Of a stretch of DNA of 64,000 nucleotides, positions 4,083 through 48,721 are shown one piece after another. The notes under the pieces are model-generated. The model did no database searches. It had not been told where the DNA came from and was given only the letters and a program-made list of their open reading frames with translations. Each line of letters opens with the position of its first letter. The first letter of the stretch is position 1. The stretch is from Candidatus Eiseniibacteriota bacterium. Its GTDB lineage: Bacteria > Eisenbacteria > RBG-16-71-46 > CAZEPH01. A program made the position numbers and the translations under genes. Location of the stretch: assembly GCA_044229145.1 (NCBI GenBank), contig JBGATO010000002.1:45873-109872 (forward strand), read 5' to 3'.

Positions 4083-4205
4083 GGCTCGCTCTGGCTTAGC
4101 CCATTGAGGTAGACTTTAGGCGGCATCTCGTCCGTTCCGGTACTCGCATCGCCGCCCAGCCGGACCTGCCCTCCCGGCCCCCCATGTCCTCACCCGAGGC
4201 CCCTC

Positions 4206-28301: not shown

Positions 28302-29858
28302 CTAGCGTGCGACGCGGACGAGGCGCGTCGTGGCGCTGACCGCACTGTCGGTGCCGAGTCGCGCGAAGTAGATCCCCGCCGCCAGGCGGGTGTCGGTCCA
28401 GCGAACGATCCAGGGCGTCGCGGCATCGCGATGCTGCCACCGGCGGACGAGCCGGCCCCGCGCGTCGAGGATCGACAGCACGGCGTCGCGTGCCGGCGAG
28501 GCGATGCGGAATTCCCAGCCGTTCGCGAGCTGCCGGGTCTGCACCACGGGCGGCGCTTCGGTGGGCGCGGAGACATCGGCGGGACCCGCGTAGCGAATGC
28601 GCCGCAGTTCTCCGCTCGGATTGAGGAAGTCGGTGAACAAGAGCAGGTAGTAGATCGCGCCATCGGGCCCAACGTCCACCGACGATAGCAGCCACGGCAA
28701 GTTGGTCACCTTCGCCCAGTTCACCGAATCGGGCTGCCCAGGCTCGCGCGCCACGGTGCCCCACGTGCCGTCGCCGCGATCGCCCAGCATCCGCATCCAC
28801 CGTTGGAATCCGTCGGCGCACACGTAACGGCCTTCGTACGACGCCGGCATCGGGAAGCGCTGGCCGCTGCGTCCGCGGATCACGCCGCCACCGAGCACGG
28901 CGGAGCCAGTCGGCGGATTGTGTGCGTAGACGTAGACGGGAAAGGTGAAGCCCATCGCGGTGTCCGGCTGCACGCACGATTGGCCGTACTGCGTGCGCTG
29001 GAAGCCTTCGAAGTACTCCCATCCGAGATTCAGCCCGCCGCCGGTCACGCGGTCGATCTCCTCCCACGATTGATCGCCGACGTCGGCGATGAACAGTGCG
29101 CCGGTGGCATCGTCCACGTCGAGGCTGAACGGATTGCGCACGCCGAGCAGCCACACCAGACGCGTCCACTCGTTCGCACTTGCGACGAACGGATTCGTCG
29201 CCGGTGTGATCACCGACTTCGCCGGCGGGCCGCCCGGCCCATCGGGCAAACCGCTGACATCGAGACGCAGGATCTTGCCGCGCGGATCCGCCAGTGAGGG
29301 CGACGTGCACTCCAATGCGTCATTGCCCGAGCAGACGTAGAGCATGCCGTCGGTGCCGAAGCGCAGACCGCCGCCGTTGTGGACCGCGTACATGTCCGGC
29401 ATGTCGGCGAGCACGAGGTAACGCGATGCCGGATCGGCCGTCATCACGCCGTTCCCGCTGAAGGCGACATCGCCCTGTAGCGTATAGCGCGCCAGGCGCA
29501 TCGTCTGCGCGCCGGAGAACGTGTAGTAGACGTAGAGATACGGCGCGGCGGGGAAGCGCGGGTCGACGGCGACGCCGAGGAGTCCCTGCTCCCAATCGCC
29601 GTAGCGCACGCTGTCGAGTGTCGCCACTGGCGCGGCGACGAGCGTGTCGCGCACGATCTCTCGCACCTTTCCGCTCGCCGTCTCGGTGATCAGCAGGCGG
29701 CCGTCGGGCAGGAATGCCATGCCCGCAGGGCGGTTCATGCCGCCCCGGGCGAGTGTCTCGTCGAGGAAGCCGGTGGGCAGCAGCACGGTCTGCGCGCGCG
29801 CGGACACCGCAGTGCAGACGAGGACGCAGACGAGGACGACGAGACGTGGGACGCGCAT
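28302..29858 (-). CDS. PQQ/GSDH-like (soluble quinoprotein sugar dehydrogenase family) beta-propeller with C-terminal sorting domain
   Basis: Start MRVPRLVVLVCVLVCTAVSARAQ (cat 29856-29858). Propeller blocks (GLLGVAVDP, LRFGTDGMLYV). C terminus ILDARGRLVRRW...AAGIYFARLGTDSAVSATTRLVRVAR is TIGR04183-like. Confidence 0.8.
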   Translation of the reverse strand: MRVPRLVVLVCVLVCTAVSARAQTVLLPTGFLDETLARGGMNRPAGMAFLPDGRLLITETASGKVREIVRDTLVAAPVATLDSVRYGDWEQGLLGVAVDPRFPAAPYLYVYYTFSGAQTMRLARYTLQGDVAFSGNGVMTADPASRYLVLADMPDMYAVHNGGGLRFGTDGMLYVCSGNDALECTSPSLADPRGKILRLDVSGLPDGPGGPPAKSVITPATNPFVASANEWTRLVWLLGVRNPFSLDVDDATGALFIADVGDQSWEEIDRVTGGGLNLGWEYFEGFQRTQYGQSCVQPDTAMGFTFPVYVYAHNPPTGSAVLGGGVIRGRSGQRFPMPASYEGRYVCADGFQRWMRMLGDRGDGTWGTVAREPGQPDSVNWAKVTNLPWLLSSVDVGPDGAIYYLLLFTDFLNPSGELRRIRYAGPADVSAPTEAPPVVQTRQLANGWEFRIASPARDAVLSILDARGRLVRRWQHRDAATPWIVRWTDTRLAAGIYFARLGTDSAVSATTRLVRVAR

Positions 29859-29953
29859 CGGGAACCCCGGGCAGTGAGGAGGCGGCAGGCGGCGGGAGAG
29901 TCCAAGCGTAGACGACCGCGCCGCGCCGGGGAAGCGGGGAGTGCGTCCGGCGC

Positions 29954-31672
29954 CTAGCGCTCCGGTCGCGCGCCGGACGCTGCGATCGACTCTTCGCCGC
30001 GTGCCACCGCCTCGGCGAGCGTCCCGACGACGTTGTCGAGTCCGATGTCGACGAGCAGCCCCGCCTTCTCCAACGCGAACATGGGTTGCGCGTGGACGCC
30101 GGCGAGCACCAGCAGGGTGCGGTCGCGCCGGCACTGGCGCAACAGTTCGACGATCGCGTGCAGGCCCGAGGCGTCGATCGCCAACACGTCGCGCACCAGA
30201 AGGATCAGCACCTTCGGCTTCTTCTCGATGGCGCGCAGCGCATCGTTGAACTGGCTGACCGCCCCGAAGAACAGCGCACCATGCACCTCGAACACTTCGA
30301 CGCCGCGCGGGATGCGCATGCCGGCGCGGCCGTCGCCCGCGCCCTCGTGCAGCAGACCGGTGACGACACTCGACTGCGAGAGCGTCGCCATCCGCATCAT
30401 GAACAGCAGCGCGGCGAGGACCATGCCGACGCCGAGCGCGGTGGTGAGGTCGACGACGATCGTCAGGGTGAACGTGGCGAGCAGCACACCGACGTCGCTG
30501 CGCGGGCCGCGGAACATGCGCAGGAAACTCCGCCACTCGCTCATGTTGTACGCGACGACGAGCAGGATGCCGCTGAGCGCGGCGATCGGCACGTGGCCGG
30601 CGAGCGGTCCGGCGGCGAGCAGGATGACCAGCAGCACGACCGCGTGGACCATCCCCGCGATCGGCGATGTCGCGCCGTTCTTGATATTCGTCGCGGTGCG
30701 CGCGATGGCGCCGGTCGCCGGAATGCCGCCGAAAACCGGCGACGCGATATTGGCGATGCCTTGCGCGACGAGCTCCGCGTTGGAGCGGTGACGTCCGCCG
30801 GTCATGCCATCCGCGACGACCGCCGACAACAGCGATTCGATGGCCGCGAGCAGCGCGATGGTGAAGGCGACCGGTGCGAGCTGGCGCAGCATCGTCCACG
30901 GCACGTGTGGCAAGCTCGGCGTCGGGAGCGTCGATGGGACGCCGCCGAAGCGCTGCGCGATGGTCTCGGCCGGCACGTGGAAGAGCGCGGTGACGAGCGT
31001 GGCGGCGACCACGGCGACGAGCGGACCCGGGACCCGCCGCGACACGCGCGGCCACAGCACCGTGATGAGGAGCGCGCCGGCCGCGACGGCGCACGACGCC
31101 GGCGTCCACGAGCCGAGGGCCCGCGCGTCCGCCGCGAGCTGCCCGAGCACGTCGGCGCCTGCGGCCGCCGGATGCACCCCGAGGAAATCCTTCACCTGCC
31201 CGCCGGCGATGATGACGGCGATTCCCGCCGTGAAGCCGACGGTCAGCGGGTAGGGCACGAACTTGATGACATCGCCCATCCGCGCGATCCCCATGACCAC
31301 GAGGATGACGCCGGCCATGAGCGTCGCGACCGCGAGTCCCGCGTACCCGAACTGGTGCACCGTCGCGGCCACCGTGACGATGAAGGCACCGGTCGGTCCG
31401 CCGATTTGCACCGTGCTCCCGCCGAGCGCGGAGATCAGGAAGCCGGCGACGATCGCCGTGAACAAGCCCTGCTCGGGCTTGACCCCCGAGGCGATGGCGA
31501 AGGCGATGGCGAGCGGCAATGCCACGACACCGACCGTGAGACCCGCCTGGATGTCGCGCACCGCGCGGCCGGCCGAATAGCCGCGCAGCGTGGTGGCGAG
31601 CATCGGGCGCTCGACGTCCCACCAATGGCGGGAGTCTGCTGTGCGCGAAGCGCGGACCGAGGGACCGGACAT
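29954..31672 (-). CDS. SulP-family anion permease with C-terminal STAS domain
   Basis: Start MSGPSVRAS (cat 31670-31672). SulP TM core plus STAS (FEVHGALFFGAVSQF...LVRDVLAIDASGL). Confidence 0.9.
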   Translation of the reverse strand: MSGPSVRASRTADSRHWWDVERPMLATTLRGYSAGRAVRDIQAGLTVGVVALPLAIAFAIASGVKPEQGLFTAIVAGFLISALGGSTVQIGGPTGAFIVTVAATVHQFGYAGLAVATLMAGVILVVMGIARMGDVIKFVPYPLTVGFTAGIAVIIAGGQVKDFLGVHPAAAGADVLGQLAADARALGSWTPASCAVAAGALLITVLWPRVSRRVPGPLVAVVAATLVTALFHVPAETIAQRFGGVPSTLPTPSLPHVPWTMLRQLAPVAFTIALLAAIESLLSAVVADGMTGGRHRSNAELVAQGIANIASPVFGGIPATGAIARTATNIKNGATSPIAGMVHAVVLLVILLAAGPLAGHVPIAALSGILLVVAYNMSEWRSFLRMFRGPRSDVGVLLATFTLTIVVDLTTALGVGMVLAALLFMMRMATLSQSSVVTGLLHEGAGDGRAGMRIPRGVEVFEVHGALFFGAVSQFNDALRAIEKKPKVLILLVRDVLAIDASGLHAIVELLRQCRRDRTLLVLAGVHAQPMFALEKAGLLVDIGLDNVVGTLAEAVARGEESIAASGARPER

Positions 31673-31981
31673 GTCGCCTCCACTCCTACACCTGGAGAGC
31701 GGCGACCGCAAGCACGGGGAGGTGCGCCATTCATCCGTCTGCGCGATACGCGTCACGGTCGCACGGTGCGGCCCACTCGCATCAATGCTCGCTTGTGCAT
31801 GGCGCTGCCGTTTGCCGTGCGGTGCCGTGGCCGGCAACGATGCACGGGTAGCGAGTGGTTGCATCCTCCCTGGCTTCTCCGCACAATTGTCCTCGTCGCC
31901 GCCAACGACTGCCCGCCTGGTGCGACAGAGTTCGCGTCCCTGCTCCCCCAGCCCCTCTCTCATTCCGGAGGATGCGATTCC

Positions 31982-34780
31982 ATGCGCTCGACGTCCTGCG
32001 CACCGCGTCTCGTGACGTGGTGCCTCCCTCTGCTTGCCCTCGTCCCCCTCGCCTCCGCGAGCGGGGCTACACGCACCGGTTCCGTCCCTCGTGCCGCAAT
32101 CTCGCGCGATCCCGACAATCGCCTGGCGGCCAGCCGCGTGTGGCGCGGTTTTCCAGGCGCCACGGTGGCCGCCGGCGACATCGCCGCGTCTGCCACCGAC
32201 GGGTCGATGTCGACCGCCGTCACGATGCCGGCCGGCGAAGCGCTCGAATTCCAGTTCATCGGCGCCCCCCGCTGGCTCAGCGAGATCACGGTGCAGACGG
32301 ATGCGCCCCTGTGGCGGGTGGACGTGCGCGGACTCGACGGCCAGTGGACGACGTTCGGCGCTGGCTCCTCGCACGGTGTCGAGCAGCCGGTGACGTTGAC
32401 GGGCGAGGCGGTGCAGGCAGTCGGAGTGCGCTTCGTGCCCGCCGCCGCAGCACCGTCGGCTCCGGCCGTGCGGCTGGCGGAGATCGCCGCGCACTTCCGG
32501 TATCACGATCCCGATGACGCCGGCCGTGCCGCAGCGGGTAACACCTATCACTCAGATTGGGTGAATCACTATTCCGGCGACACCAACGACCTGAGCAAAT
32601 GCGACGACGACTCGCGTGATCTGCGCGACGCCCTGCAGAACCACAGTTGGACGACGTGGGAACACACCGAGACGAACGCGCACGAAGCGCACTTCAAGTC
32701 GACCATCATCGGGACAGGCGACAACAACGATCACGCGGACAACGCGGATCTTGCGTACTTCTCCGGCCATGGCTCGAGCGGCACCGTCGATCCGGTGTAT
32801 ACCGGGACCGCGTTGGGCTCGATGCTGTTCGACGACGAAACACACGATGACGCCACGCTGGTGCCGAGCGACATGGACGATTCGTGGGGCAACGGCGAGA
32901 TGGAGTGGCTGATCTCCACGTCCTGCCGCACCCTGCGCGGCGAAGGGCGCCCGTACTGGAAGTGGGGCATGGAAGGCGTGCATCTGCTCTGCGGCTCGGA
33001 ATCGTCGATCGCCGACCAGTCGTATGGAGACGTTCTCGGCGACGAGTTGATCGACAACGGCATCTTCGACAGCCCGATCACCGTGAAGCAGGCGTGGTTC
33101 GACGCGATGGAGGAGTGGAACGGCGGGCACGACGTGGCGGTCGTGCAGGGCGAAACATCGGTGATGGGCACCGATTTCATCTGGGGCGAAGGGTCCGTTT
33201 CCGCAGATCCTGTCGTCGACAACACCTCATTCGTCTGGCTCTACGATGTGGGAGCCACTGCGCCGTCGCGCGGCCAGCTCCCGGCGGTGCCGCGCCTGCA
33301 CGATCCCGTGCGAATCCGCGCGGCCGGCCGTGCCGCCTGGACGGTGCGTCTCGAACGTGCCGAACTCGAGCGCCCAGCGGCGGCGCAGATGCCGGTGTGG
33401 AACGTGGTGCCGCGCATGGTCGATTCGGTGTACGTGCGCAACCTGTCCAACCAGGTGTGCGGCGTGTACGGCCAGCTGTGCGCCACCGACATCGGGATCG
33501 GCGCGCCGAATGAATACACCAGTGTCCAGGGGCCCTACCAACTGCGCGTGCGCACCGAGACCGGCGGCCTCTCGCTGACCGACGTGTCGAATTGGATGTC
33601 GGTGCGGGCGATTCCGCCGCAGCTGCTCACCGGACAGGCGGCGCTCACTCAGGCGGATCAAATCCTCACGCAGTTGAATTTCAGGCCGGCGGATGCGACC
33701 GCCACAGGGGTGTCCTACCTCTGGCAGCGCGGCGAGAGCGCCACCGGACCCGGCTCGCTGGCGGCCGGGGACACCAGCTTTGCGATCGCCACGAAGGTGA
33801 CGTTTACGCGGCGGGTCGGCAGCGGCGAAGGCTATCCGGTCTTCGGCCCGGGCGCCTCGATCTCCGTCACCATGGGGCACAATGGGGCGCTTCAGCGGAT
33901 CTTCGGCCGCGGGTGGCGGCAACTGTCGCAGGGTGCCCAGGCGACGATTCTCCCGCTCAGCACACTGCTGCCGTCGCTCTCGGCGCTCGGCAACGGCGCC
34001 TTGCTCGACCCGGTGCGGCAGCCGATCGACAGCCTGGTGATCACCAATTGGGAGCTCGGCTACTTCGAACCGGGATGCCGGGAAGCGGTGAACTCGTTGC
34101 GCCCCACGTACCGGCTGCACTGCATCTGCTACGAAGGCACGACCACGTTCGCCGCGGACTTCTCGATGTACGCGGACGCGCTGCCGCTCAACGCGACCAT
34201 TCTCACGCCCGTGGAGGACTTCACGATTCCGCCGGGCGGCAGTGTCTGCTTCAACGGATCGGCCAACGGCGGCACTTCGCCGTACAGCGCGGAGTGGGTG
34301 CACGACGACGGCGAGATCTTCAGTGGCTGGATGTGGTGCCGCACGCTCGGCATGCCGGCCGACCCGCACTCGAACCAGGACAGCGTCCGCACCATGACGC
34401 TCCGGGTCACCGACAGCCGCGGCGCGGTCGCGGAGGCGAAAGTCCACGTCCGTCTGGCGACGGTGACTGCGGCGGATCTCGGCACGGGCGCCCAGGCCGG
34501 CGACGGCTTCCAATCCGTGCCGTCCGTGCTGCGGGATGGCGCCACGCTCGGCTTCCGGGTGCCGGACGGCGGCGGACGCGGGCCGGTTTCGCTGCGTCTC
34601 GTCGACCCTTCGGGGCGCATCGTGCGGACTCTCTTCGAGGGACACCCGGGCGACGGCGCGACGACTGTCCGCTGGAGCCGGTCGGACGCGACGGGAGGGA
34701 AGCTCGCGGCGGGCGTGTACTGGCTCATTCTCGACGCGCCCGCGCTCCACCAATCGCGGCGCATCATCGTCGTCGACTAA
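31982..34780 (+). CDS. secreted 932-aa protein with putative clan-CD-like peptidase module and C-terminal sorting domain
   Basis: ATG 31982 with GGAGGA RBS. Signal peptide MRSTSCAPRLVTWCLPLLALVPLASASG. His-Gly ... Cys dyad candidates (ADLAYFSGHGSSG ... WLISTSCRTLRGE). C terminus VSLRLVDPSGRIVRTLF...AAGVYWLILDAPALHQSRRIIVVD is TIGR04183-like. Confidence 0.75.
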   Translation: MRSTSCAPRLVTWCLPLLALVPLASASGATRTGSVPRAAISRDPDNRLAASRVWRGFPGATVAAGDIAASATDGSMSTAVTMPAGEALEFQFIGAPRWLSEITVQTDAPLWRVDVRGLDGQWTTFGAGSSHGVEQPVTLTGEAVQAVGVRFVPAAAAPSAPAVRLAEIAAHFRYHDPDDAGRAAAGNTYHSDWVNHYSGDTNDLSKCDDDSRDLRDALQNHSWTTWEHTETNAHEAHFKSTIIGTGDNNDHADNADLAYFSGHGSSGTVDPVYTGTALGSMLFDDETHDDATLVPSDMDDSWGNGEMEWLISTSCRTLRGEGRPYWKWGMEGVHLLCGSESSIADQSYGDVLGDELIDNGIFDSPITVKQAWFDAMEEWNGGHDVAVVQGETSVMGTDFIWGEGSVSADPVVDNTSFVWLYDVGATAPSRGQLPAVPRLHDPVRIRAAGRAAWTVRLERAELERPAAAQMPVWNVVPRMVDSVYVRNLSNQVCGVYGQLCATDIGIGAPNEYTSVQGPYQLRVRTETGGLSLTDVSNWMSVRAIPPQLLTGQAALTQADQILTQLNFRPADATATGVSYLWQRGESATGPGSLAAGDTSFAIATKVTFTRRVGSGEGYPVFGPGASISVTMGHNGALQRIFGRGWRQLSQGAQATILPLSTLLPSLSALGNGALLDPVRQPIDSLVITNWELGYFEPGCREAVNSLRPTYRLHCICYEGTTTFAADFSMYADALPLNATILTPVEDFTIPPGGSVCFNGSANGGTSPYSAEWVHDDGEIFSGWMWCRTLGMPADPHSNQDSVRTMTLRVTDSRGAVAEAKVHVRLATVTAADLGTGAQAGDGFQSVPSVLRDGATLGFRVPDGGGRGPVSLRLVDPSGRIVRTLFEGHPGDGATTVRWSRSDATGGKLAAGVYWLILDAPALHQSRRIIVVD

Positions 34781-34889
34781 GCGGGACGAGATTTACGGCG
34801 GCCCCGCCAGGCTCGGCGCCTGGCGGGGCTGTCTGCTACACTGCCGCGCGATTCGTCCCCGTCTTCGTCGATCCAGGAGAGTCGCCCGC

Positions 34890-35801
34890 ATGTCCGGCCC
34901 CGGTCGCATCGTCGGTGGCGCCATCGCGCCGCATCCGCCGCACCTCGTGTACGCCGAGAACCCACCGCAAAACGAGCCGCGCGCCGAGTGCGGGTGGGAG
35001 ACGCTGCGGTGGGGCTACGAGCGGCTGCGCGCCAACCTCGCCCGCAAGGACTACGATGTCCTGATCGTGCACTCCCCGCACTGGCGCACCGTCGTTGGTC
35101 ATCACTTTCTCGGCGTGCCGCACTTCAGCGGCTTGAGCGTCGATCCAATCTTTCCGAACTTGTTCCGCTATCACTTCGAACTCGACGTCGATGTCGCACT
35201 CGCCGAGGCGATCCACGACGAAGCGCGCGACGCCGGCCTGGTCACGAAGATGATGCGCAATCCGCACTTCCGCATCGACTACGGCACCATCGCCTCGTGC
35301 CACCTGACGAATCCGGCGTGGGACAAGCCGATCGTCGGCATCTCATCGAACGCGGCATTCTTCTATTACTCGAACGAGGTCGGGCAAGAGCAAATGCTGG
35401 CACTCGGCGAGGCGACGCGCCGCGCGGTGGAGAAGTCGGGCAAGCGCGCGATCGTGCTCGCGAGCAATTCGCTCAGTCACCGCCACTTCACGAGCGAGCC
35501 GCCGATTCCGGAGGACATGTCGCACGAGCACATCTACCACCACGGCCAATACCTGTGGGACATGCACGTGCTCGACTTGCTGCGCCGCGGCCGCGCGCGC
35601 GAGTTCCTCGACGAGATGCCGGACTTCACCGATCAAGCCGAGAGCGAGACCAAGGCGGGCTCGACGAGCTGGCTGATCGCGGCGCTCGGGTATCCCGAGT
35701 ATCCGGCGGAGGTGCACGGCTACGGCACGGTGATCGGCACCGGCAACGCGATCGTCGAGTGGGACCCCGAACGCGCCGCGGTCGCGGGAGGTGCGCGATG
35801 A
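34890..35801 (+). CDS. LigB-type (class III) extradiol ring-cleavage dioxygenase, catalytic beta subunit (AmnB-like)
   Basis: ATG 34890. N-terminal GGAIAPHPPHLV and LIVHSPHW retain the metal-ligand/catalytic histidines of the LigB/AmnB family. Confidence 0.8.
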   Translation: MSGPGRIVGGAIAPHPPHLVYAENPPQNEPRAECGWETLRWGYERLRANLARKDYDVLIVHSPHWRTVVGHHFLGVPHFSGLSVDPIFPNLFRYHFELDVDVALAEAIHDEARDAGLVTKMMRNPHFRIDYGTIASCHLTNPAWDKPIVGISSNAAFFYYSNEVGQEQMLALGEATRRAVEKSGKRAIVLASNSLSHRHFTSEPPIPEDMSHEHIYHHGQYLWDMHVLDLLRRGRAREFLDEMPDFTDQAESETKAGSTSWLIAALGYPEYPAEVHGYGTVIGTGNAIVEWDPERAAVAGGAR

Positions 35802-37186
35802 GCCGCGAGGGAACCATCGTCGCCGGCTACATCGTGCCGGGCATGCCGCATCCGCTGCTGGTGCCGGAGCGCAACGCCGGATGGGCATCGCTGCGCGCGA
35901 GCTACGAACGTGTCGCGGCGGAGATCGCGCGTCACGACGCCGACCTGCTCATTCTCTACAGCACGCAGTGGATCTCGATCATCGGTCACCAAGTGCAGGC
36001 CGATCCCGAACCGGTGTGGCATCACGTCGACCCCGAGTGGCACGAGCTCGGCGACATGCCGTATCGCTTCCGCATCGACGCGCCGTTTGGCGCCGCGCTC
36101 GAATCGGCGGCACACGCGCGCGGACTCGCGGCGCGCACCGTCGCCTACCACGGTTTCCCGATCGACACCGGCACCGTCGTCGCGCTCACACTGCTCAATC
36201 CGGGCAATCGCCTGCCGGCAAGCGTCGTGTCGTGCAACATGTATGCGGATCGCGCCGAGACGCTCATCTGGGGCAAGGCGGCACGCGACGCCGTGCGCGC
36301 GTGCGGCAAGCGCGCGGTGGCCATCGCGGTGACCGCATTGTCGAACCGCATGTTCACGCATGACATCGATCCGGCTGAGGATCGCATCAGTTCGCTCAAG
36401 GACGACGAGTGGAATCGCAAACTCCTCGAATTGCTCGGCGAAGGGCGGCTCGAGGACGTGTCGCAGTTGGCGCGCGAGTTCAGCGCGCAGGCCAACGGCG
36501 ATCAGAGGCTGAAGGCCCTGTGGTGGCTCGCCGCGCTCATGGGACAGCACAACGACTACGTCGGCGTGGTGCATGACTATCAGGCCGTGTGGGGAACCGG
36601 CGCGGCCATCGTCGGCCTGACGCCGACCGATACCCCGGCGGCGCGCCTCGAGTTCGACGAGGAAGATGTCGACGTCTTCGCGGGCGAGCGCAATGTGCTC
36701 GGCGCGCCCGGCGCACAGCCGCCGCGTGTCGCGTCGCCGTCGCGCGACGCGGCGGTCGCCGTCGCGGAGCCGCCCACCGCAATTCACTCGGAGCACGCAC
36801 CGGCGCCGGTCGGCCCGTATCCGCATGCGCGGCGCGTCGGCGAGTTGCTCTTCGTCAGTGGCATGGGGCCGCGCGACCCGAAGACCAACGAGATCCCGGG
36901 CGGGCCGGTGCGTGGCGCCGACGGACAGCCGCGCGACTACGACATCGAGGCACAAACGCGCGCGACGATCGAGAACGTCAAGCGTGTCCTCGAGGATGCC
37001 GGCGCGTCGCTGCGCGACGTGTTCGACGTGACAGTGTTCCTGATCGACATGGATCGCGATTTCGCGACGTTCAATCGGGTGTACGGCGAATATTTCGCCG
37101 ACATCGCGCCGACGCGCACGACGCTCGCGGTGCGTGCATTGCCGACGCCGATCGCGGTGGAACTCAAGGTCATCGCCCAGGGGTGA
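35798..37186 (+). CDS. fusion: LigB-type dioxygenase alpha (non-catalytic, AmnA-like) subunit + RidA/YjgF deaminase-like domain
   Basis: ATG 35798 overlaps the upstream stop (ATGA). N-terminal ~290 aa is LigB-like but has STQW in place of SPHW. The C-terminal ~125 aa (HAPAPVGPYPHARRVGELLFVSGMGPRDP...TVFLIDMDRDFATFNRVYGEYF...PTRTTLAVRALPTPIAVELKVIAQG) is a complete RidA fold. Confidence 0.75.
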   Translation: MSREGTIVAGYIVPGMPHPLLVPERNAGWASLRASYERVAAEIARHDADLLILYSTQWISIIGHQVQADPEPVWHHVDPEWHELGDMPYRFRIDAPFGAALESAAHARGLAARTVAYHGFPIDTGTVVALTLLNPGNRLPASVVSCNMYADRAETLIWGKAARDAVRACGKRAVAIAVTALSNRMFTHDIDPAEDRISSLKDDEWNRKLLELLGEGRLEDVSQLAREFSAQANGDQRLKALWWLAALMGQHNDYVGVVHDYQAVWGTGAAIVGLTPTDTPAARLEFDEEDVDVFAGERNVLGAPGAQPPRVASPSRDAAVAVAEPPTAIHSEHAPAPVGPYPHARRVGELLFVSGMGPRDPKTNEIPGGPVRGADGQPRDYDIEAQTRATIENVKRVLEDAGASLRDVFDVTVFLIDMDRDFATFNRVYGEYFADIAPTRTTLAVRALPTPIAVELKVIAQG

Positions 37187-40497: not shown

Positions 40498-41274
40498 CTA
40501 CACCTGCATCGGCTCCTTCTTGCCGCCGCCGGTCAGCGCGCGCCAGATCATCTTGATCGGATCATAGTAGCGGTCCGCGACGCGCTCCTTCAGAGGGATG
40601 ATGGCGTTGTCGGTGATGGTGATGCTTTCGGGGCACACCTCCGTGCAGCACTTGGTGATGTTGCACAGCCCGATCCCGCCCTCGTGACGCAGGAACGGCA
40701 CGCGATCGGCGCCGTCCATCGGGTGCATTTCGAGCGCCGCGTTGCGCACGAAGAAGCGCGGCCCGGCAAACTGCTCCTTCTTCTCGTGCGACCGCAACAC
40801 GTGGCAGACGTCCTGGCACAGGAAGCACTCGATGCACTTGCGGAACTCCTGCACGCGATCGATCTCGTGCTGGTAGTAGATCCAGTTCGCGTCGGCGCGC
40901 GGGGTGAAGCCGGTGATCTGGCGATTCACCTCGTAGTTCCACGAGACGTCGGTCACCAAGTCCTTGATCACCGGGAAGGTCTTGAGCGGCATGACCGTGA
41001 TCGTCTCGCCTTCGGCGAAGTGATCCATGCGCGTCTTGCACATGAGCGACGGCTTGCCGTTGACCTCGGCGCTGCACGAGCCGCACTTGGCGGCCTTGCA
41101 GTTCCACCGCACCGCGAGATCCGGTGCGGCGTTGGCCTGGATCCAGTGGATCGCGTCGAGCACCACCATGCCGGGCTCGATGGGGACGGTGAAGTCCTGC
41201 GTCTGCCCGCCGTTCTGGTCGCCGCGAAAGACCTTGAGCAGCGCATTGCGGGTTCCGCTTCCGTGTCCGCTCAC
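40498..41274 (-). CDS. sdhB: succinate dehydrogenase/fumarate reductase iron-sulfur subunit
   Basis: GTG 41274 overlaps the sdhA stop. 2Fe-2S, 4Fe-4S and 3Fe-4S cysteine clusters (CKAAKCGSC, CIECFLCQDVC, CTEVCP). Confidence 0.95.
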   Translation of the reverse strand: MSGHGSGTRNALLKVFRGDQNGGQTQDFTVPIEPGMVVLDAIHWIQANAAPDLAVRWNCKAAKCGSCSAEVNGKPSLMCKTRMDHFAEGETITVMPLKTFPVIKDLVTDVSWNYEVNRQITGFTPRADANWIYYQHEIDRVQEFRKCIECFLCQDVCHVLRSHEKKEQFAGPRFFVRNAALEMHPMDGADRVPFLRHEGGIGLCNITKCCTEVCPESITITDNAIIPLKERVADRYYDPIKMIWRALTGGGKKEPMQV

Positions 41275-43094
41275 TTCGCGGCCTCCTTCTTCGGCGCGTC
41301 GAACAACGCCTTGAGCTCCGCCGGCATCACCGGCAGCGGCGTCGCCTCCACCGACATCGCGCCGTCCTTCAGCTTGGTGCAGTGGTTGACCGAGCCGAAC
41401 GCCTCGCTCTTGTCGGGGAAGTCGAGACGCGCATGGCCGCCGCGCGATTCCTTGCGCAGGATCGCCGAGCGCACGATGGCCTCCGACACCAGCAGCATGT
41501 TCTGCAGGTCGCGCGACAGGTGCCAGCCGGGGTTGTAGACGCGCGAGCCGGCGACGCTCACCTTGTCGGCGCGCGCGCGCAGCGCCAGGATGGCGTCGAG
41601 GCCCTTCTGCATCTCCGACTCCTCGCGGAAGATGCCGACGTGGTCGTTCATCGCCTGCTGCAGTGCCTTGTGCACCGCGTACGGCGACTCGCCGCCGCTG
41701 CGCGCGAACGGTGCAAGCATCAGCGACTGTTGTTCGCCGATCTCGCTCTCGCTGATCGCCAGGTTCTTCGGCGCCGACTTGGCATAGAGCGCGGCGTGCT
41801 CGCCGGCCCGCCGGCCGAACACCAGCAAGTCGCTCAGCGAGTTGCCGCCGAGGCGGTTCGCGCCGTGCATGCCGGCGGCCGCTTCACCGGCCGCGAACAG
41901 GCCGGGCACGGTGGCCGCGGTGGTGTCGGCTTCGACGCGCACGCCGCCCATGATGTAGTGCGTGGTCGGCCCGACTTCCATCGGCTGCTGCGTGATGTCG
42001 ACGTCGGCGAGTTCCTTGAACTGGTCGTACATCGACGGCAACTTCTTGCGCACGCGCTCCGCCGGCAGGTACGAGATGTCGAGGAACGCGCCGCCGTGCG
42101 GGCTGCCGCGTCCATCCTTCACCTCGGTGTAGATGGCGCGCGCCACGTTGTCACGCGTCGACAGCTCCGGCGGCCGCCGCGCGTCGGTCTGCTTGCGCTC
42201 GAACGACGCCTCGAGCCACGCGCGTGCTTCGTCCTCGTTCTCGGCGTACTCGTGCCGGCGCTCCTCCGGCAGGTACTTCCACATGAAGCGCTCGTTCTTG
42301 CTGTTGCGCAGGATGCCGCCCTCGCCGCGCACGCCTTCGGTCACCAGCAAGCCCATGACGCCGGGCGGCCACACCATGCCGGTCGGGTGGAACTGGATGA
42401 ACTCCATGTCGATGAGTTCGGCGCCGGCGCGGTAGGCGAGCGACTGCCCGTCGCCCGTGTACTCCCACGAGTTCGACGTGATCTTGTACGACTTGCCGAT
42501 GCCGCCGGTGGCCAGCACGACGGCCGGCGCGCGGAACAGCACGAACTCGCCGGTCTGCCGCTTGTAGCCGAACGCGCCGGCGATCTTGCCGCCGCTCTGG
42601 AACAGATGGACGATCGTCGTCTCCATGTAGACCTGGAGACCTTGGTGCACGCCGCGGTCCTGCAGCGTGCGGATCATCTCGAGGCCGGTGCGGTCGCCGA
42701 CGTGGGCGAGGCGCTTCCACTTGTGGCCGCCGAACGCGCGCTGCAGGATCTTGCCGTCCGTCGTGCGGTCGAACGCGGCGCCCCACTGCTCGAGTTCCTT
42801 GACGCGGGCCGGCGCTTCCTGCGCGTGGAGTTGCGCCATGCGCCAGTTGTTGAGGAAGCCGCCGCCCTTCATGGTGTCCTGGAAGTGCGTTTCCCAGCCA
42901 TCCTGCGGGTCGACGTGGCCGAGCGCGGCGGCGATGCCGCCTTCCGCCATCACGGTGTGCGCCTTGCCGAGCAGCGACTTGCAGACGAGTCCCACCGAGA
43001 CGCCATGGTTCGAGGCCTGGATCGCCGCGCTGAGGCCGGCGCCGCCGGCGCCGATGACGAGAACGTCGTGTTCGTAGGTCGTGTACTTTTCCAT
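41271..43094 (-). CDS. sdhA: succinate dehydrogenase/fumarate reductase flavoprotein subunit
   Basis: Start MEKYTTYEHDVLVIGAGGAGLSAA (cat 43092-43094). FAD-binding GxGxxG, covalent-FAD His region, catalytic HPTG...RGEGG. Confidence 0.95.
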   Translation of the reverse strand: MEKYTTYEHDVLVIGAGGAGLSAAIQASNHGVSVGLVCKSLLGKAHTVMAEGGIAAALGHVDPQDGWETHFQDTMKGGGFLNNWRMAQLHAQEAPARVKELEQWGAAFDRTTDGKILQRAFGGHKWKRLAHVGDRTGLEMIRTLQDRGVHQGLQVYMETTIVHLFQSGGKIAGAFGYKRQTGEFVLFRAPAVVLATGGIGKSYKITSNSWEYTGDGQSLAYRAGAELIDMEFIQFHPTGMVWPPGVMGLLVTEGVRGEGGILRNSKNERFMWKYLPEERRHEYAENEDEARAWLEASFERKQTDARRPPELSTRDNVARAIYTEVKDGRGSPHGGAFLDISYLPAERVRKKLPSMYDQFKELADVDITQQPMEVGPTTHYIMGGVRVEADTTAATVPGLFAAGEAAAGMHGANRLGGNSLSDLLVFGRRAGEHAALYAKSAPKNLAISESEIGEQQSLMLAPFARSGGESPYAVHKALQQAMNDHVGIFREESEMQKGLDAILALRARADKVSVAGSRVYNPGWHLSRDLQNMLLVSEAIVRSAILRKESRGGHARLDFPDKSEAFGSVNHCTKLKDGAMSVEATPLPVMPAELKALFDAPKKEAAK

Positions 43095-43873
43095 CAGCGC
43101 CCCGGGAAGTTGAGGATGCCCGCCGCGCACATGCGGATGTAGGCATCGGCGATGACGACGGTGTAGAGGCTCGCCCAGAAGTACTGCATGTGGCGGCCGT
43201 TGAGCGCGCTCACCAGGCTCCACGCCTTGTAGCGGACCTCGCCGCCCTTCGCACACGAGAAGCAGTCGACGTTGCCGCCGATCATGTGGCGGAAGGCGTG
43301 ACACGAAGTGGCGTAGAGCGTGAGCAGCGCGGTGTCGAGGATGAGCAGCAAGTTTCCGAGACCGACGCGCACGTGGCCGTCGTACCAGAACGATCGCACC
43401 ACGTGGAACCAGTGGATGGCGATCAACGCGAGCGCGAGGTAGAGGAAGTAGCGGTGCAGATTCTGCAGCCAGAACGGGAAGCTCTTTTCGCCGCCGTAGC
43501 CTGCGAGATGCGGCGCGGTGCCCACCGCGCAGGCGGCCGGCGAGCCGAACACCGAGCGGTAGTAGACGCGGCGCATGTAATAGCAGGTGGCGCGGAAGAG
43601 GATCGGCACCGCGAGCGTCAGCGCGGTCAGCAGGCCGGTCATCGCGATGCCCGGCAACTCGGCGTGGATCGGCGAGCGCAGCGATTCGAACTGCACACCG
43701 TCCGGATGGCTGCCGGACCAGCCGGCGTATCCCATCGCGACGAGTAACGCGACGAGTTGGAACAGAGGCGATTGCCACCACGCGTCTGTGCGTTCGGTGG
43801 CGCCGAAGGGCTGACCGCACCCCGCGCCGCGATAGGCTTCGGGCGTGGCGGTCAAAGTACGTGCAGGAGGCAT
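43094..43873 (-). CDS. sdhC: succinate dehydrogenase cytochrome b subunit (type-B, Bacillus-like single large subunit)
   Basis: Start MPPARTLTATPEAY (cat 43871-43873). Five TM helices with conserved heme-ligand histidines. ATGA overlap with sdhA. Confidence 0.8.
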   Translation of the reverse strand: MPPARTLTATPEAYRGAGCGQPFGATERTDAWWQSPLFQLVALLVAMGYAGWSGSHPDGVQFESLRSPIHAELPGIAMTGLLTALTLAVPILFRATCYYMRRVYYRSVFGSPAACAVGTAPHLAGYGGEKSFPFWLQNLHRYFLYLALALIAIHWFHVVRSFWYDGHVRVGLGNLLLILDTALLTLYATSCHAFRHMIGGNVDCFSCAKGGEVRYKAWSLVSALNGRHMQYFWASLYTVVIADAYIRMCAAGILNFPGR

Positions 43874-44224
43874 CGTCCGTCTTCCGTCGTGGGACCATGT
43901 GCGATGATGCGAGCGCATCATCCGGCGGGGAGCCGTGCGCATGGCGAACGCGATGCAAAACCGAGAGGCGCGGGCAGCATGCGGCCGACATCCCCAGAAT
44001 TGCGGCACCTTAGCACAGGGCACCACCCCCGGAAACCCGCGCCGGGGTCGCCATCGGGTCCATCGCCCGGGAGATGTCGGGCATCGCGGAACCTGAATCC
44101 CCTCCGCGGCCTCTGTGATCTCGTGCAAAGCCGGCGTGCGCGCCGGCGTACCACCTCTGGCTGATCTGGATCGTCCACGCGGTCCCCGGCTGGAGCGCCG
44201 TCCCCGTCTGCCGGGGGGCTTCCC

Positions 44225-47013: not shown

Positions 47014-48513
47014 TTACTCGGTGAGCAGAATGGTGCCCGTGGCGCGGGCGCCCTGTGACTCGACGTCGAGCCGGTACACGCCGTGCGGCAGGCGCCGCCC
47101 GGTGGAATCGTGCCCATCCCAACTCACGGTGCGTTCGCCGCGTGCGCCGTCGACGTGCCACCGCCGCACCACGCGTCCCCGCACGTCGCTGAGCAGCAGG
47201 CGCGTGGCGCCGGCGTCGGCTTGCGCCCAGCACAGCCGCGCCCGGCTCGACGTCGTCCCGCGCACCTGCAGGGACGATTCCGACGCCGGCGGAGGCGCCA
47301 CGGCCGTGACGGTCGGCTCGAGTCGCCACACCGCGTTGCTGGTGAGATCGACGATGTGCAGGATGCCGTCGGGATCGAGATCGAAATCGGTCACCGCGCC
47401 GAATCCCTGGCCCCAGGTCAGTGAGGCAACCTCGCTCGTGTTGTTGTCCGCGACGCGATCGGCGAGCAGCGGATCGCTCAGCACGAACGAATCGCGCGAC
47501 GCCGCCATCGGGAACAGGTACAGCCTGCCGAAGTTGTTGTCGCCGACGATGCACTGATCTTGCAGCGCCGGACCGTAGTGCGGCGTGTGCAGGAAGAGGA
47601 TCGCGCACGGCGTCACCACCTGCGCCCACGAGAACTCCGGATCGCTGTACGCGGCGCCGGGCGCCATCCAGAGATCCGCGACGCCCTTCGGCGAGCGCGC
47701 GTCGGGCCCGACGATCTGTTCCCAGCCGCCGTTCATGCCCGGCGTGATGCGATTGATCTCGTCGTAACTGGTGGGCCCCGGCTCGGTGTTCCACAGTGTG
47801 CCGGTGAGCGGATCGAAGGTCATGCCGAAGCAGTTGCGCAGGCCGTACGAGTACACCAGCTCCATGCGTGTCACGCCGGCGAACGGATTGTCGGCGGGCG
47901 CGCTGCCATCGTCGTTCATGCGCATGACGACGCCGGTGGTGTCCGGCGCCGGTCCGGCCGGATAGTTCTGCAACTTGCCGTTGCGATTGAGTTCGCCGAT
48001 CACCGCGTAGAGTTTGCCATCGGGACCGAACTGCAGGATACCGCCGTCGTGATTCGGGCCCGGCGTGACCTCGAGCCGCTGGATGATGGTCGGCGTCGTG
48101 AGCGCGCTGCCCGTCCACGTATAGCGCACGATGCGATTGTCGAGCGCCTGCGTCGAGTTGCTGGTGTCGTTGAGCGTCGAGCTCTGCGTGAAGTAGACGT
48201 AGACCCACGGCGTCGCCGGGAACTGCGGGTGCAAGGCGATGCCGAGCAGGCCGCGCTCGCTCGCCGAGTTGACGGCGACATCGAGCACCGGCGCCGGCTG
48301 CAAGACGCCGCCGATGACGCGCTGCACGCGGCCGGTGGTCTTCTCGCACACCAAGAAATCGCCGCGATCGAGGAACACCATGGTGGTCGGCGAGTTGAGG
48401 CCAGTGACCACCGCGGTGACCTTGAGCGTGGTGTCCGCCATCGTCGGCGCCGCCAGGGCAGGCCGCGCGCAGGCGACGACGAGCAGCGTGAGGGCACGAC
48501 CGAGCATTCGCAT
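47014..48513 (-). CDS. PQQ/GSDH-like beta-propeller with C-terminal sorting domain (paralog of 28302-29858)
   Basis: Start MRMLGRALTLLVVACARPALA (alternative ATGs 48525, 48507). Propeller blocks (GLLGIALHP, LQFGPDGKLY). C terminus LLSDVRGRVVRRWHV...HGVYRLDVESQGARATGTILLTE. Confidence 0.8.
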   Translation of the reverse strand: MRMLGRALTLLVVACARPALAAPTMADTTLKVTAVVTGLNSPTTMVFLDRGDFLVCEKTTGRVQRVIGGVLQPAPVLDVAVNSASERGLLGIALHPQFPATPWVYVYFTQSSTLNDTSNSTQALDNRIVRYTWTGSALTTPTIIQRLEVTPGPNHDGGILQFGPDGKLYAVIGELNRNGKLQNYPAGPAPDTTGVVMRMNDDGSAPADNPFAGVTRMELVYSYGLRNCFGMTFDPLTGTLWNTEPGPTSYDEINRITPGMNGGWEQIVGPDARSPKGVADLWMAPGAAYSDPEFSWAQVVTPCAILFLHTPHYGPALQDQCIVGDNNFGRLYLFPMAASRDSFVLSDPLLADRVADNNTSEVASLTWGQGFGAVTDFDLDPDGILHIVDLTSNAVWRLEPTVTAVAPPPASESSLQVRGTTSSRARLCWAQADAGATRLLLSDVRGRVVRRWHVDGARGERTVSWDGHDSTGRRLPHGVYRLDVESQGARATGTILLTE

Positions 48514-48721
48514 GGGAGGGCGCATCCTTTCCGAGAGGGTGTGCTGAGTGTGCCACAGGCCGCGGGCGCACACTAGTCGCGGGCCAGCCGATGGCCGGAC
48601 GCTCAGGAAAACCCCGCAGGCGTGGCGTCGTTCCGCTCGACCGGCGGCGGGTCATCGCCGATACTCCGGCCGCGCCGCCGCGCAGGCAACTTCCGGCTCC
48701 CACTCACCTTGCGAGGATGTC

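What the first reader, a model, noticed from the sequence alone, without database searches (positions are those of the whole stretch)
31982..34780. 932-aa secreted sorting-domain protein with a candidate clan-CD-like His/Cys peptidase dyad and no recognisable family
After an N-terminal jelly-roll-like domain there is a segment with a His-Gly (ADLAYFSGHGSSG) followed ~55 residues later by a Cys preceded by a hydrophobic strand (EWLISTSCRTL). That spacing and local context are typical of caspase/gingipain-type (clan CD) peptidases.

The remaining ~450 residues before the CTD have no obvious motifs. If correct, this would be a gingipain-like secreted protease of unknown specificity exported by the T9SS route.
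Basis: inference. Interest (0 to 1): 0.55.

Follow-up and report, generated by a model that had tools for sequence, protein, structure and literature searches.

The report
Secreted caspase-fold protease with conserved partner domain
This gene encodes a secreted five-domain protein whose core is an uncharacterised caspase/gingipain-type (clan CD) cysteine protease domain, Pfam DUF6345, that is almost always fused or adjacent to a second conserved domain of unknown function.

Summary

"No recognisable family" is wrong. Residues 192-420 match Pfam DUF6345 (E=4.7e-31), a curated family with no assigned function.

The clan-CD idea holds:
- His263 is kept in 180/184 relatives and Cys315 in 181/188.
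- In an AlphaFold2 model (pLDDT 91) they follow strands beta3 and beta4.
- All 50 best Foldseek PDB hits are clan CD peptidases (CHAT, MALT1, caspases, C11, metacaspase, gingipain R).
- The domain alone just passes Pfam's Peptidase_C14 cut-off.

The "motif-less" remainder is organised. Residues ~441-731 form a conserved partner domain with no Pfam or PDB match.
- It is fused after DUF6345 in 108 of 191 relatives and placed before it in 9.
- It is a separate gene 8-17 nt downstream in all 5 stand-alone cases examined.
- An Ig-like domain and a C-terminal beta-sandwich follow it.

The query's own C-terminal domain is below threshold for the sorting-domain models. Homologues with the same architecture pass the T9SS model; others carry dockerin or IPTL-CTERM.

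Verdict: a new, uncharacterised clan CD family member. Catalysis, specificity, export route and the partner's role are all inferred.

The parts
31967..31972 (+). Shine-Dalgarno-like GGAGGA, 9 nt upstream of the ATG
   Evidence: Read in the sequence.
31982..34780 (+). Whole gene: 932 codons plus TAA stop
   Evidence: Translation. GC3 is 0.86. An identical protein, P0001, is in the public collection, with an 85% relative and 26-53% full-length relatives.
31982..32059 (+). Predicted Sec signal peptide, residues 1-26, with an ASA|S cleavage motif and no lipobox
   Evidence: Read from the sequence: two Arg, a 15-residue hydrophobic core, then A-S-A. Model pLDDT is below 50 for residues 1-39. No signal-peptide predictor was available, so this is inference.
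32114..32497 (+). N-terminal all-beta sandwich (jelly-roll-like) domain, residues ~45-172, with an invariant PRW motif (96-98)
   Evidence: DSSP on the model shows only strands, with pLDDT 87-96. Whole-protein Foldseek hits include galactose oxidase, sialidase and fucosidase accessory beta-sandwiches, but the aligned regions are not reported, so the carbohydrate-binding-like assignment is inferred. There is no Pfam hit.
32537..33247 (+). DUF6345 domain with a caspase/haemoglobinase (clan CD) fold, residues ~186-422
   Evidence: Pfam PF19872, E=4.7e-31, residues 192-420. Domain model pLDDT 91.3. All 50 best Foldseek PDB hits are clan CD peptidases. Peptidase_C14 scores 22.0 bits against a cut-off of 21.4 for the domain alone, and 12 of 40 relatives also hit C14.
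32768..32773 (+). Candidate catalytic His263 and the adjacent Gly264, directly after strand beta3 (257-261)
   Evidence: His is kept in 180/184 and Gly in 173/184 relatives. Strand position comes from DSSP. His on L3 plus a neighbouring Gly is conserved in all clan CD families (PMC4357240).
32924..32926 (+). Candidate catalytic Cys315, directly after strand beta4 (309-313)
   Evidence: Cys is kept in 181/188 relatives, with Ser in 4. Strand position comes from DSSP.
32738..32983 (+). Second conserved cluster within the domain: Asp253, Asp256, Glu308, Trp309 and His334, at the N-terminal ends of beta3, beta4 and beta5
   Evidence: Kept in 179/182, 180/182, 181/188, 184/188 and 181/190 relatives. 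Their placement on the face opposite the dyad is inferred from strand order, not measured.
33248..33301 (+). Low-confidence linker, residues 423-440, between the peptidase domain and the partner domain
   Evidence: pLDDT falls to 70-77 here, against above 90 on either side. A role as a processing site is speculation.
33302..34174 (+). Conserved partner domain, residues ~441-731: three alpha+beta modules, each a helix followed by antiparallel strands
   Evidence: pLDDT 89-98. No Pfam hit in 23 members and no PDB sequence relative. Fused after DUF6345 in 108 of 191 relatives and placed before it in 9. Encoded by the next gene in 5 of 5 stand-alone cases: hhalign probability 98.4%, E=6.4e-15; hmmsearch E from 3e-35 to 1e-15.
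34184..34459 (+). Ig-like (PKD-type) beta-sandwich, residues ~735-826
   Evidence: All-beta in DSSP. Many Ig-domain Foldseek hits. The equivalent stretch of relatives gives sub-threshold PKD and K319L-like_PKD hits.
34529..34777 (+). C-terminal beta-sandwich, residues ~850-932: a diverged FlgD_ig / T9SS-CTD-like domain
   Evidence: FlgD_ig scores 22.4 bits against a cut-off of 27. There is no TIGR04183 hit at E<=1. Six same-position C-terminal domains of homologues with this architecture pass TIGR04183, and P0007 also passes Por_Secre_tail PF18962. Two other proteins in the window end in FlgD_ig above the cut-off.

Best explanation
The gene encodes a secreted or surface-displayed multidomain cysteine peptidase of clan CD. 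It belongs to the uncharacterised family Pfam DUF6345.

Proposed sequence of events:
1. A Sec signal peptide takes the protein across the inner membrane.
2. The C-terminal beta-sandwich acts as a sorting or anchoring module, of T9SS-CTD type in homologues with this architecture.
3. The N-terminal beta-sandwich and the Ig-like domain position the enzyme on a target.
4. The DUF6345 domain cleaves peptide bonds with His263 as general base and Cys315 as nucleophile.
5. The ~290-residue partner domain that follows is an obligate accessory. Most likely it keeps the enzyme latent or stabilises it, as the C-terminal prodomain does in legumain or the Ig domain in gingipains. Alternatively it holds the substrate.

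What is shown:
- the gene and its domain layout;
- membership of DUF6345;
- the caspase-like fold;
- the position and conservation of the dyad;
- the evolutionary coupling of the peptidase domain and the partner domain;
- the interchangeable extracellular C-terminal modules in relatives.

What is inferred:
- catalysis itself;
- signal-peptide cleavage and the export route;
- the role of the partner domain;
- substrate specificity. A preference for basic P1 residues is only a guess, from conserved Asp203 and Asp208 at the L1/alpha1 position.
For: - Family: Pfam DUF6345, E=4.7e-31. A search of every cluster representative found 316 relatives.
- Dyad conservation: His263 180/184, Gly264 173/184, Cys315 181/188.
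- Dyad position: DSSP on two confident models puts His just after beta3 (257-261) and Cys just after beta4 (309-313), within a beta-alpha-beta succession. This is the clan CD arrangement described in PMC4357240.
- Fold: all 50 best Foldseek PDB hits of the domain model are clan CD peptidases, probability up to 1.00, best E=4.7e-5, TM 0.45-0.51.
- Sequence link to C14: Peptidase_C14 at 22.0 bits for the domain alone (cut-off 21.4), and 12 of 40 relatives hit it.
- Whole protein: the best PDB match is PorU, a gingipain-type multidomain T9SS enzyme.
- Partner coupling: fused in 108, permuted in 9, and encoded by the adjacent downstream gene in 5 of 5 split cases from different lineages.
- Compactness: a whole-protein pTM of 0.84 indicates confidently packed domains.
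- Extracellular setting: relatives end in T9SS CTD, dockerin, IPTL-CTERM or membrane anchors.
- Only literature mention of the family: a Tannerella forsythia DUF6345 protein is listed in a proteome table of that study (host-cell EVs and bacterial OMVs), with predicted outer-membrane location (PMC10682907).
Against: - No member of DUF6345 has been tested, and no literature exists beyond one proteome listing.
- Structural similarity to solved clan CD enzymes is moderate (TM about 0.45, sequence identity 8-16%).
- The whole protein falls below Pfam's C14 cut-off (18.6 against 21.4 bits).
- The query's own C-terminal domain fails both sorting-domain thresholds.
- The reviews consulted describe T9SS as a Bacteroidota system, whereas the closest genome hit is Candidatus Eisenbacteria.
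- Some stand-alone relatives, and their partner genes, have no signal peptide, so the module is not intrinsically extracellular.
- Residues Asp253, Asp256, Glu308 and His334 are as conserved as the dyad and remain unexplained.
Confidence: 0.72

Rival explanations
1. It is a transpeptidase or sortase-like enzyme rather than a hydrolase. By analogy with PorU (the T9SS C-terminal signal peptidase/sortase) or GPI8, it would use the same His/Cys dyad to cleave a sorting signal and attach cargo to a surface polymer.
For: The best whole-protein Foldseek hit is latent PorU 6za2 (E=1.5e-8). The protein has a PorU-like multidomain layout ending in a CTD-like sandwich. At least two other proteins in this 64-kb window end in FlgD_ig-type domains and could be cargo.
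Against: TM-score to PorU is only 0.11 over the whole chain. The NCBIfam PorU model NF033707 does not hit the protein. In relatives it matches only the CTD. The family also occurs with dockerins, with IPTL-CTERM, in archaea, and as cytoplasmic-looking two-gene pairs. That spread does not fit a dedicated T9SS sortase.
Confidence: 0.08
2. The dyad serves only self-processing, as in the MARTX/TcdB cysteine protease domains (C80). The domain would cut its own chain once, for example in the 423-440 linker, to release or activate the flanking domains, and would have no external substrates.
For: A low-confidence linker separates the peptidase and partner domains. The same two parts exist as separate polypeptides in other genomes. 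Clan CD includes dedicated autoprocessing domains (PMC4357240). A conserved Asp/Asp/Glu/His cluster away from the dyad could be an allosteric ligand site.
Against: In split systems there is nothing to self-cleave between the two parts, yet the dyad is fully conserved there. No toxin or effector domain is present in the protein.
Confidence: 0.1
3. It is a non-catalytic or non-peptidase protein. The caspase-like fold would be a scaffold or binding module, and the conserved His and Cys would be structural or bind a metal together with Asp253, Asp256, Glu308 and His334.
For: No biochemical data exist for any member. The Asp/Asp/Glu/His cluster is at least as conserved as the dyad. Structural similarity to active peptidases is moderate.
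Against: The His-Gly after beta3 and the Cys after beta4, each preceded by a hydrophobic strand, match the catalytic arrangement of every clan CD family. Pseudo-enzymes usually lose one of these residues, whereas here they are kept in 96-98% of relatives. By strand order, the Asp/Glu/His cluster lies at the opposite end of the sheet from the His/Cys pair, so the two sets are unlikely to form one site.
Confidence: 0.1

Closest known systems
Pfam DUF6345 (PF19872), family of unknown function
   Same: The protein is a full-length match (108.4 bits, residues 192-420 covering profile positions 2-218 of 221). All named relatives are called 'DUF6345 domain-containing protein' or 'hypothetical protein'.
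   Different: No functional difference can be stated, because the family has no assigned function. The Pfam model covers only the peptidase-like domain, not the co-evolving partner domain.
Family C14 of clan CD: caspases, paracaspase MALT1, metacaspases and bacterial orthocaspases; also CHAT-domain proteases
   Same: It has the same alpha/beta fold. The His-Gly follows beta3 and the Cys follows beta4. The best structural hits are SAVED-CHAT, MALT1, Dronc and caspase-9. There is a marginal Pfam Peptidase_C14 match.
   Different: Sequence identity to these is 8-16%. The whole protein is below the C14 cut-off. It is predicted to be secreted, with beta-sandwich accessory domains, rather than cytosolic with death-fold, SAVED or TPR partners. 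It has a family-specific partner domain and a conserved Asp/Asp/Glu/His cluster.
Gingipains RgpB/Kgp and PorU (family C25, T9SS cargo and sortase of Porphyromonas gingivalis)
   Same: It shares the overall logic of signal peptide, N-terminal domain, clan CD catalytic domain, Ig-like domain and C-terminal beta-sandwich. PorU is the best whole-protein PDB hit, and RgpB 1cvr is among the domain hits (E=0.013).
   Different: There is no Pfam or NCBIfam C25/PorU match outside the CTD. A ~290-residue partner domain lies between the catalytic and Ig-like domains. The probable host lineage is outside Bacteroidota.
Legumain (C13) with its C-terminal LSAM prodomain, and C11 proteases (clostripain, PmC11) with C-terminal extensions
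   Same: These are clan CD enzymes whose catalytic domain is followed by a C-terminal domain that controls latency or stability. That is the role proposed here for the partner domain. C11 structures 6mzo and 6n9j are among the hits.
   Different: There is no sequence relation. The partner domain here is alpha+beta, not helical like LSAM (LSAM fold recalled from general knowledge). It can be a separate gene or can precede the peptidase domain. The regulatory role is untested.

Membership tests
Pfam DUF6345 (PF19872) | Score above the curated gathering cut-off of the family HMM over most of the model | tested here: met
   108.4 bits against 26.9, profile positions 2-218 of 221. All 40 aligned relatives also match.
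Clan CD cysteine peptidases (caspase/haemoglobinase fold) | An alpha/beta/alpha sandwich built on a central sheet like the caspase six-stranded 2-1-3-4-5-6 sheet | tested here: met
Clan CD cysteine peptidases (caspase/haemoglobinase fold) | Catalytic His before Cys in the sequence, at the C-terminal ends of beta3 and beta4 (loops L3 and L4), with a conserved Gly next to the His | tested here: met
   Strand 257-261 is followed by Gly262-His263-Gly264. Strand 309-313 is followed by Ser314-Cys315. Conservation is 180/184, 173/184 and 181/188. The criterion is taken from PMC4357240.
Clan CD cysteine peptidases (caspase/haemoglobinase fold) | His and Cys side chains close enough to form a dyad beside an S1 pocket formed by L1/alpha1, L4 and L5 | not testable with these tools
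   Model coordinates cannot be read, so no distances were measured.
Clan CD cysteine peptidases (caspase/haemoglobinase fold) | Peptide-bond hydrolysis dependent on the Cys | not testable with these tools
   This needs biochemistry.
Peptidase family C14 (Pfam PF00656) | Score above the gathering cut-off (21.4 bits) | tested here: inconclusive
   The whole protein scores 18.6 bits (E=0.0016), below the cut-off. The domain alone scores 22.0 bits, just above it, and 12 of 40 relatives match with a best E of 3.6e-5. The protein is better described as a sister family than as C14.
Peptidase families C25 (gingipain/PorU), C11, C13 and the CHAT domain | A match to the family HMM | tested here: not met
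   None of these appears for the query at E<=1 in Pfam or NCBIfam. CHAT is hit by 1 of 40 relatives at E=0.021.
T9SS type A C-terminal sorting domain (TIGR04183 / Pfam PF18962) | Score above the cut-off (23 and 27 bits) for the last ~80 residues | tested here: not met
   The query's last 100 residues give no TIGR04183 hit at E<=1 and no PF18962 hit at E<=0.1. Six same-position domains of homologues with this architecture pass TIGR04183 at 24.6-38.2 bits, so the query domain looks like a diverged homologue.
T9SS type A C-terminal sorting domain (TIGR04183 / Pfam PF18962) | A compact Ig-like seven-stranded beta-sandwich at the extreme C-terminus | tested here: inconclusive
   DSSP shows six or seven strands between residues 841 and 930, with pLDDT 82-94. 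The fold description comes from the abstract of PMC11285876. Strand topology was not checked.
T9SS type A C-terminal sorting domain (TIGR04183 / Pfam PF18962) | Presence of the T9SS machinery (PorU/V, SprA, etc.) in the same genome | not tested
   Only a 64-kb window is available. No T9SS component was seen among the ORFs scanned.
FlgD_ig (Pfam PF13860) | Score above the cut-off (27 bits) | tested here: not met
   17.8 bits in the whole protein and 22.4 bits for the C-terminal 100 residues. Relatives P0003-P0005 carry a precomputed PF13860 hit.

The most novel reading that the evidence does not exclude
DUF6345 and its partner domain form a previously undescribed two-component protease module, found in both bacteria and archaea. 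The partner would be a dedicated built-in regulator: an inhibitor or chaperone that occupies the active site until a trigger releases it, or an obligate substrate-presenting subunit. The conserved Asp253/Asp256/Glu308/His334 cluster on the face opposite the dyad would be an allosteric metal or ligand switch. The module would have been recruited repeatedly. In cytoplasmic forms it is a two-gene cassette. In secreted forms it is a fusion carrying lineage-specific anchors (T9SS CTD, dockerin, IPTL-CTERM, membrane anchor).
Probability: 0.3. Interest if true: 0.62.

Novelty: new variant of a known kind. Interest (0 to 1): 0.48.

Why it matters
Clan CD contains caspases, gingipains, legumain, separase and toxin-processing domains. 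Each new family has so far revealed its own mode of latency and specificity.

DUF6345 is found in many lineages:
- Eisenbacteria, Planctomycetota, Chloroflexia, Acidimicrobiales, Burkholderiales, Bacteroidota and Bathyarchaeota;
- 316 cluster representatives at 50% identity.

It is nevertheless annotated only as a DUF.

Three things follow if the assignment is right:
- The whole family gains a testable function and candidate active-site residues (His263, Cys315).
- The ~290-residue partner domain, which has no Pfam model, is flagged as a candidate for curation and structure determination.
- Environmental bacteria outside Bacteroidota would be shown to export gingipain-style multidomain proteases.

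The fused, split and permuted arrangements are a clean Rosetta-stone case that makes the partner's role directly testable.

Tried and rejected
- A domain-only word-index homology search found nothing, not even the protein itself. I replaced it with the exhaustive representative search.
- The look-up of encoding contigs for P0001 and P0004 returned no record. The listing of cluster members gave no names or accessions.
- A profile search of PDB sequences found nothing with the DUF6345 alignment and only noise with the partner alignment.
- The single-sequence PDB search gave only noise, including gasdermin-D at E=0.3 within the peptidase domain. I rejected this as chance.
- Anti-phage defence (PADLOC) models gave no hit for the protein, the stand-alone pair or their neighbours. 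A defence-system reading, such as a gasdermin-type cassette, has no support.
- Gene neighbourhood gave no conserved partner other than the partner-domain gene:
  - the window neighbours are unrelated metabolic genes: SulP, GSDH, LigB, RidA, SppA and Sdh;
  - the neighbours in the Planctomycetales, Bathyarchaeota and Chloroflexia loci differ from one another.
- The promoter and terminator scan found nothing useful.
- Literature searches for DUF6345, PF19872, Eisenbacteria with T9SS, and 5COZ gave one incidental proteome mention and nothing else.
- The partner domain's 'PVxGPGxxxxVxxGxxGxL' hairpin reminded me of FTP/PepSY propeptide motifs. No member hits those Pfam families at E<=1, so I do not claim this.
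Full report
**Observation**

The ORF at 31982-34780 (+) translates without interruption to 932 residues plus a TAA stop.
- A GGAGGA sits 9 nt upstream of the ATG.
- GC3 is 0.86 in a 70% GC window. A third-position GC frame plot assigns the whole interval to this frame.
- The longer TTG-initiated ORF from 30086 overlaps a SulP permease gene on the other strand (29957-31672). It is not the real start.
- The N-terminus reads as a Sec signal peptide: two Arg, a 15-residue hydrophobic core, then Ala-Ser-Ala|Ser, with no lipobox. The model has pLDDT below 50 for residues 1-39.

**Family**

The statement that the protein belongs to no recognisable family is wrong.
- Residues 192-420 match Pfam DUF6345 (PF19872) at 108.4 bits against a cut-off of 26.9.
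- A weak Peptidase_C14 hit overlaps it, at 18.6 bits and below cut-off.
- Scanned alone, the domain scores 22.0 bits on C14, just over the 21.4 cut-off. Twelve of 40 relatives also touch C14, and one touches CHAT.
- There is no hit to the C25, C11 or C13 models.
- No solved structure is related by sequence, even with a family profile.
- Every relative that carries a name is called 'DUF6345 domain-containing protein' or 'hypothetical protein'.
- The only paper that mentions the family lists a Tannerella forsythia member in a proteome table of a study of host-cell EVs and bacterial OMVs.

**Conservation**

The word-index search found six full-length relatives at 26-100% identity, with His263 and Cys315 invariant. 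The exhaustive search of 1.84 billion cluster representatives found 316 proteins at E<=1e-3.

Counts below are from 191 collected sequences.

| Residue | Kept in |
|---|---|
| His263 | 180/184 |
| Gly264 | 173/184 |
| Cys315 | 181/188 (Ser in four) |
| Asp253 | 179/182 |
| Asp256 | 180/182 |
| Glu308 | 181/188 |
| Trp309 | 184/188 |
| His334 | 181/190 |

The last five residues lie at the N-terminal ends of strands beta3 to beta5. By strand order they should therefore sit on the face of the sheet opposite the dyad. I could not verify this in three dimensions, and the cluster is unexplained. A metal or allosteric site is one possibility.

**Fold**

- AlphaFold2 with a 62-sequence alignment gave a confident whole-protein model (pLDDT 88.4, pTM 0.84).
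- A 40-sequence alignment of residues 176-432 gave pLDDT 91.3 and pTM 0.90.
- DSSP places His263 directly after strand 257-261 and Cys315 directly after strand 309-313, within alternating strands and helices.
- The clan CD review (PMC4357240) names three features as common to all families of the clan: the dyad on L3 and L4 at the ends of beta3 and beta4, an adjacent conserved Gly, and a caspase-like central sheet.
- All 50 best Foldseek PDB hits for the domain model are clan CD peptidases. They include SAVED-CHAT (E=4.7e-5, TM 0.47-0.51), MALT1, Dronc, caspase-9, CED-3, two C11 proteases, metacaspase 9 and gingipain R.
- The whole-protein model's best hit is latent PorU, the gingipain-type T9SS sortase (E=1.5e-8). 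The alignment is multidomain and TM is only 0.11.

**The rest of the protein**

The model shows five domains.
1. An all-beta sandwich, residues ~45-172, with an invariant PRW motif.
2. The DUF6345 domain.
3. After a lower-confidence linker (423-440), a ~290-residue alpha+beta region. It has three modules, each a helix followed by antiparallel strands, with pLDDT 89-98.
4. An Ig-like sandwich, residues ~735-826.
5. A C-terminal sandwich, residues ~850-932.

The alpha+beta region has no Pfam match in any of 23 members and no PDB relative, yet it is tightly coupled to DUF6345.

| Arrangement among 191 relatives | Number |
|---|---|
| Partner region follows the peptidase domain | 108 |
| Partner region precedes the peptidase domain | 9 |
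| Short stand-alone DUF6345 protein | 60 |
| Long protein with DUF6345 only | 14 |

I examined the gene neighbourhood of five stand-alone genes: Roseateles, Acidimicrobiales and three other metagenome or MAG contigs.
- In all five, the next gene lies 8-17 nt downstream and is 282-380 residues long.
- In all five it is homologous to this region. hhalign gave probability 98.4% and E=6.4e-15 over 228 columns. hmmsearch gave E from 3e-35 to 1e-15.

This fused, split and permuted pattern argues that the two parts work together. What the partner does is not shown. It has no conserved catalytic-type residues. Its nearly invariant positions are Arg610, several Gly, Trp645-Arg646, Tyr694 and Pro708. 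I therefore favour a regulatory, stabilising or substrate-binding role.

**Sorting domain and localisation**

- The query's last 100 residues score 22.4 bits on FlgD_ig (cut-off 27). They do not hit TIGR04183 at E<=1 or Por_Secre_tail at E<=0.1.
- The equivalent domains of six homologues with the same architecture pass TIGR04183. One also passes Por_Secre_tail.
- Other relatives replace this module with type I dockerins, an IPTL-CTERM signal, or what read as hydrophobic membrane-anchor-like C-termini.
- Two other proteins in the window end in FlgD_ig above cut-off: 4113-8276 (+) and 47014-48651 (-).
- The fused form is therefore most likely extracellular, with a lineage-specific anchor.
- The T9SS route is an inference. 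The closest genome match is a Candidatus Eisenbacteria MAG at 53% identity, and the reviews consulted describe T9SS as a Bacteroidota system.
- Some split forms lack signal peptides altogether.

**Context**

The neighbours in the window are unrelated: SulP/STAS permease, GSDH, aldehyde dehydrogenase, two LigB-like genes, RidA, SppA and succinate dehydrogenase. The neighbours in the Planctomycetales, Bathyarchaeota and Chloroflexia loci differ from one another. PADLOC gave nothing.

**Conclusion**

The protein is best described as a secreted multidomain member of DUF6345, an uncharacterised clan CD family nearest to C14/CHAT by structure and gingipain/PorU-like in overall layout. It has an obligate partner domain that is not in Pfam.

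Catalysis, specificity, the export route and the partner's function remain inferred. I score it as a new variant of a known kind, with moderate interest.

Noticed in passing
window 4113-8276 (+): This 1388-aa ORF has only one Pfam match, a C-terminal FlgD_ig domain (28.5 bits, cut-off 27). About 1300 residues are unannotated. It is probably another secreted protein using the same C-terminal module.
   Followed up: no
window 47014-48651 (-) and 28305-29900 (-): There are two glucose/sorbosone dehydrogenase (GSDH) beta-propeller genes. The one at 47014-48651 carries a C-terminal FlgD_ig domain (32.3 bits). The one next to the target gene does not.
   Followed up: no
window 34836-35798 (+) and 35801-37183 (+): There are two consecutive LigB-type extradiol dioxygenase-like genes directly downstream of the target. 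The second is fused to a RidA/L-PSP domain.
   Followed up: no
window 41274-43991 (-): In this 906-aa ORF the succinate dehydrogenase flavoprotein domains begin only at residue 309. The GC3 frame plot changes frame near 43080. The long ORF is therefore probably an over-extension across two genes.
   Followed up: partly
window 32738-32983 (+), residues Asp253, Asp256, Glu308, Trp309, His334: This second residue cluster is as conserved as the catalytic dyad (95-99%). By strand order it lies at the opposite end of the sheet. It may be a metal or allosteric site, and no function is known.
   Followed up: partly
L005 6001-7540 (Roseateles sp. CP170545.1); L008 4001-5547; L010 4001-5546; L011 4001-5973; L012 4001-5735: Stand-alone DUF6345 genes (224-273 aa) are each followed 8-17 nt downstream by a 282-380-aa gene without Pfam annotation. 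That gene is homologous to residues ~441-731 of the window protein. The Roseateles pair has no signal peptides, whereas the partner gene in L012 does.
   Followed up: yes
L004 2463-4028 and 7985-10252 (Chloroflexia MAG): Here the DUF6345 gene sits between a gene with a Peptidase_C13-like (legumain family, also clan CD) domain and a CARDB/PPC extracellular protein.
   Followed up: no
L003 4199-4900 and 9121-10086 (Bathyarchaeota chromosome CP070759.1): An archaeal DUF6345 protein (838 aa) has a Rce1-like CAAX protease gene upstream. An M48 peptidase gene lies two genes downstream. This may be coincidence.
   Followed up: no
L005 2830-5430 compared with L007: A block of seven small genes without Pfam hits lies upstream of the Roseateles DUF6345 pair in two contigs (L005, L006). 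A third contig (L007) carries only one small ORF there, so the block looks like a variable insertion.
   Followed up: no
window protein residues 290-344: Weak phmmer matches to human and mouse gasdermin-D chains (E about 0.3) fall inside the peptidase domain. I judged them to be chance.
   Followed up: partly
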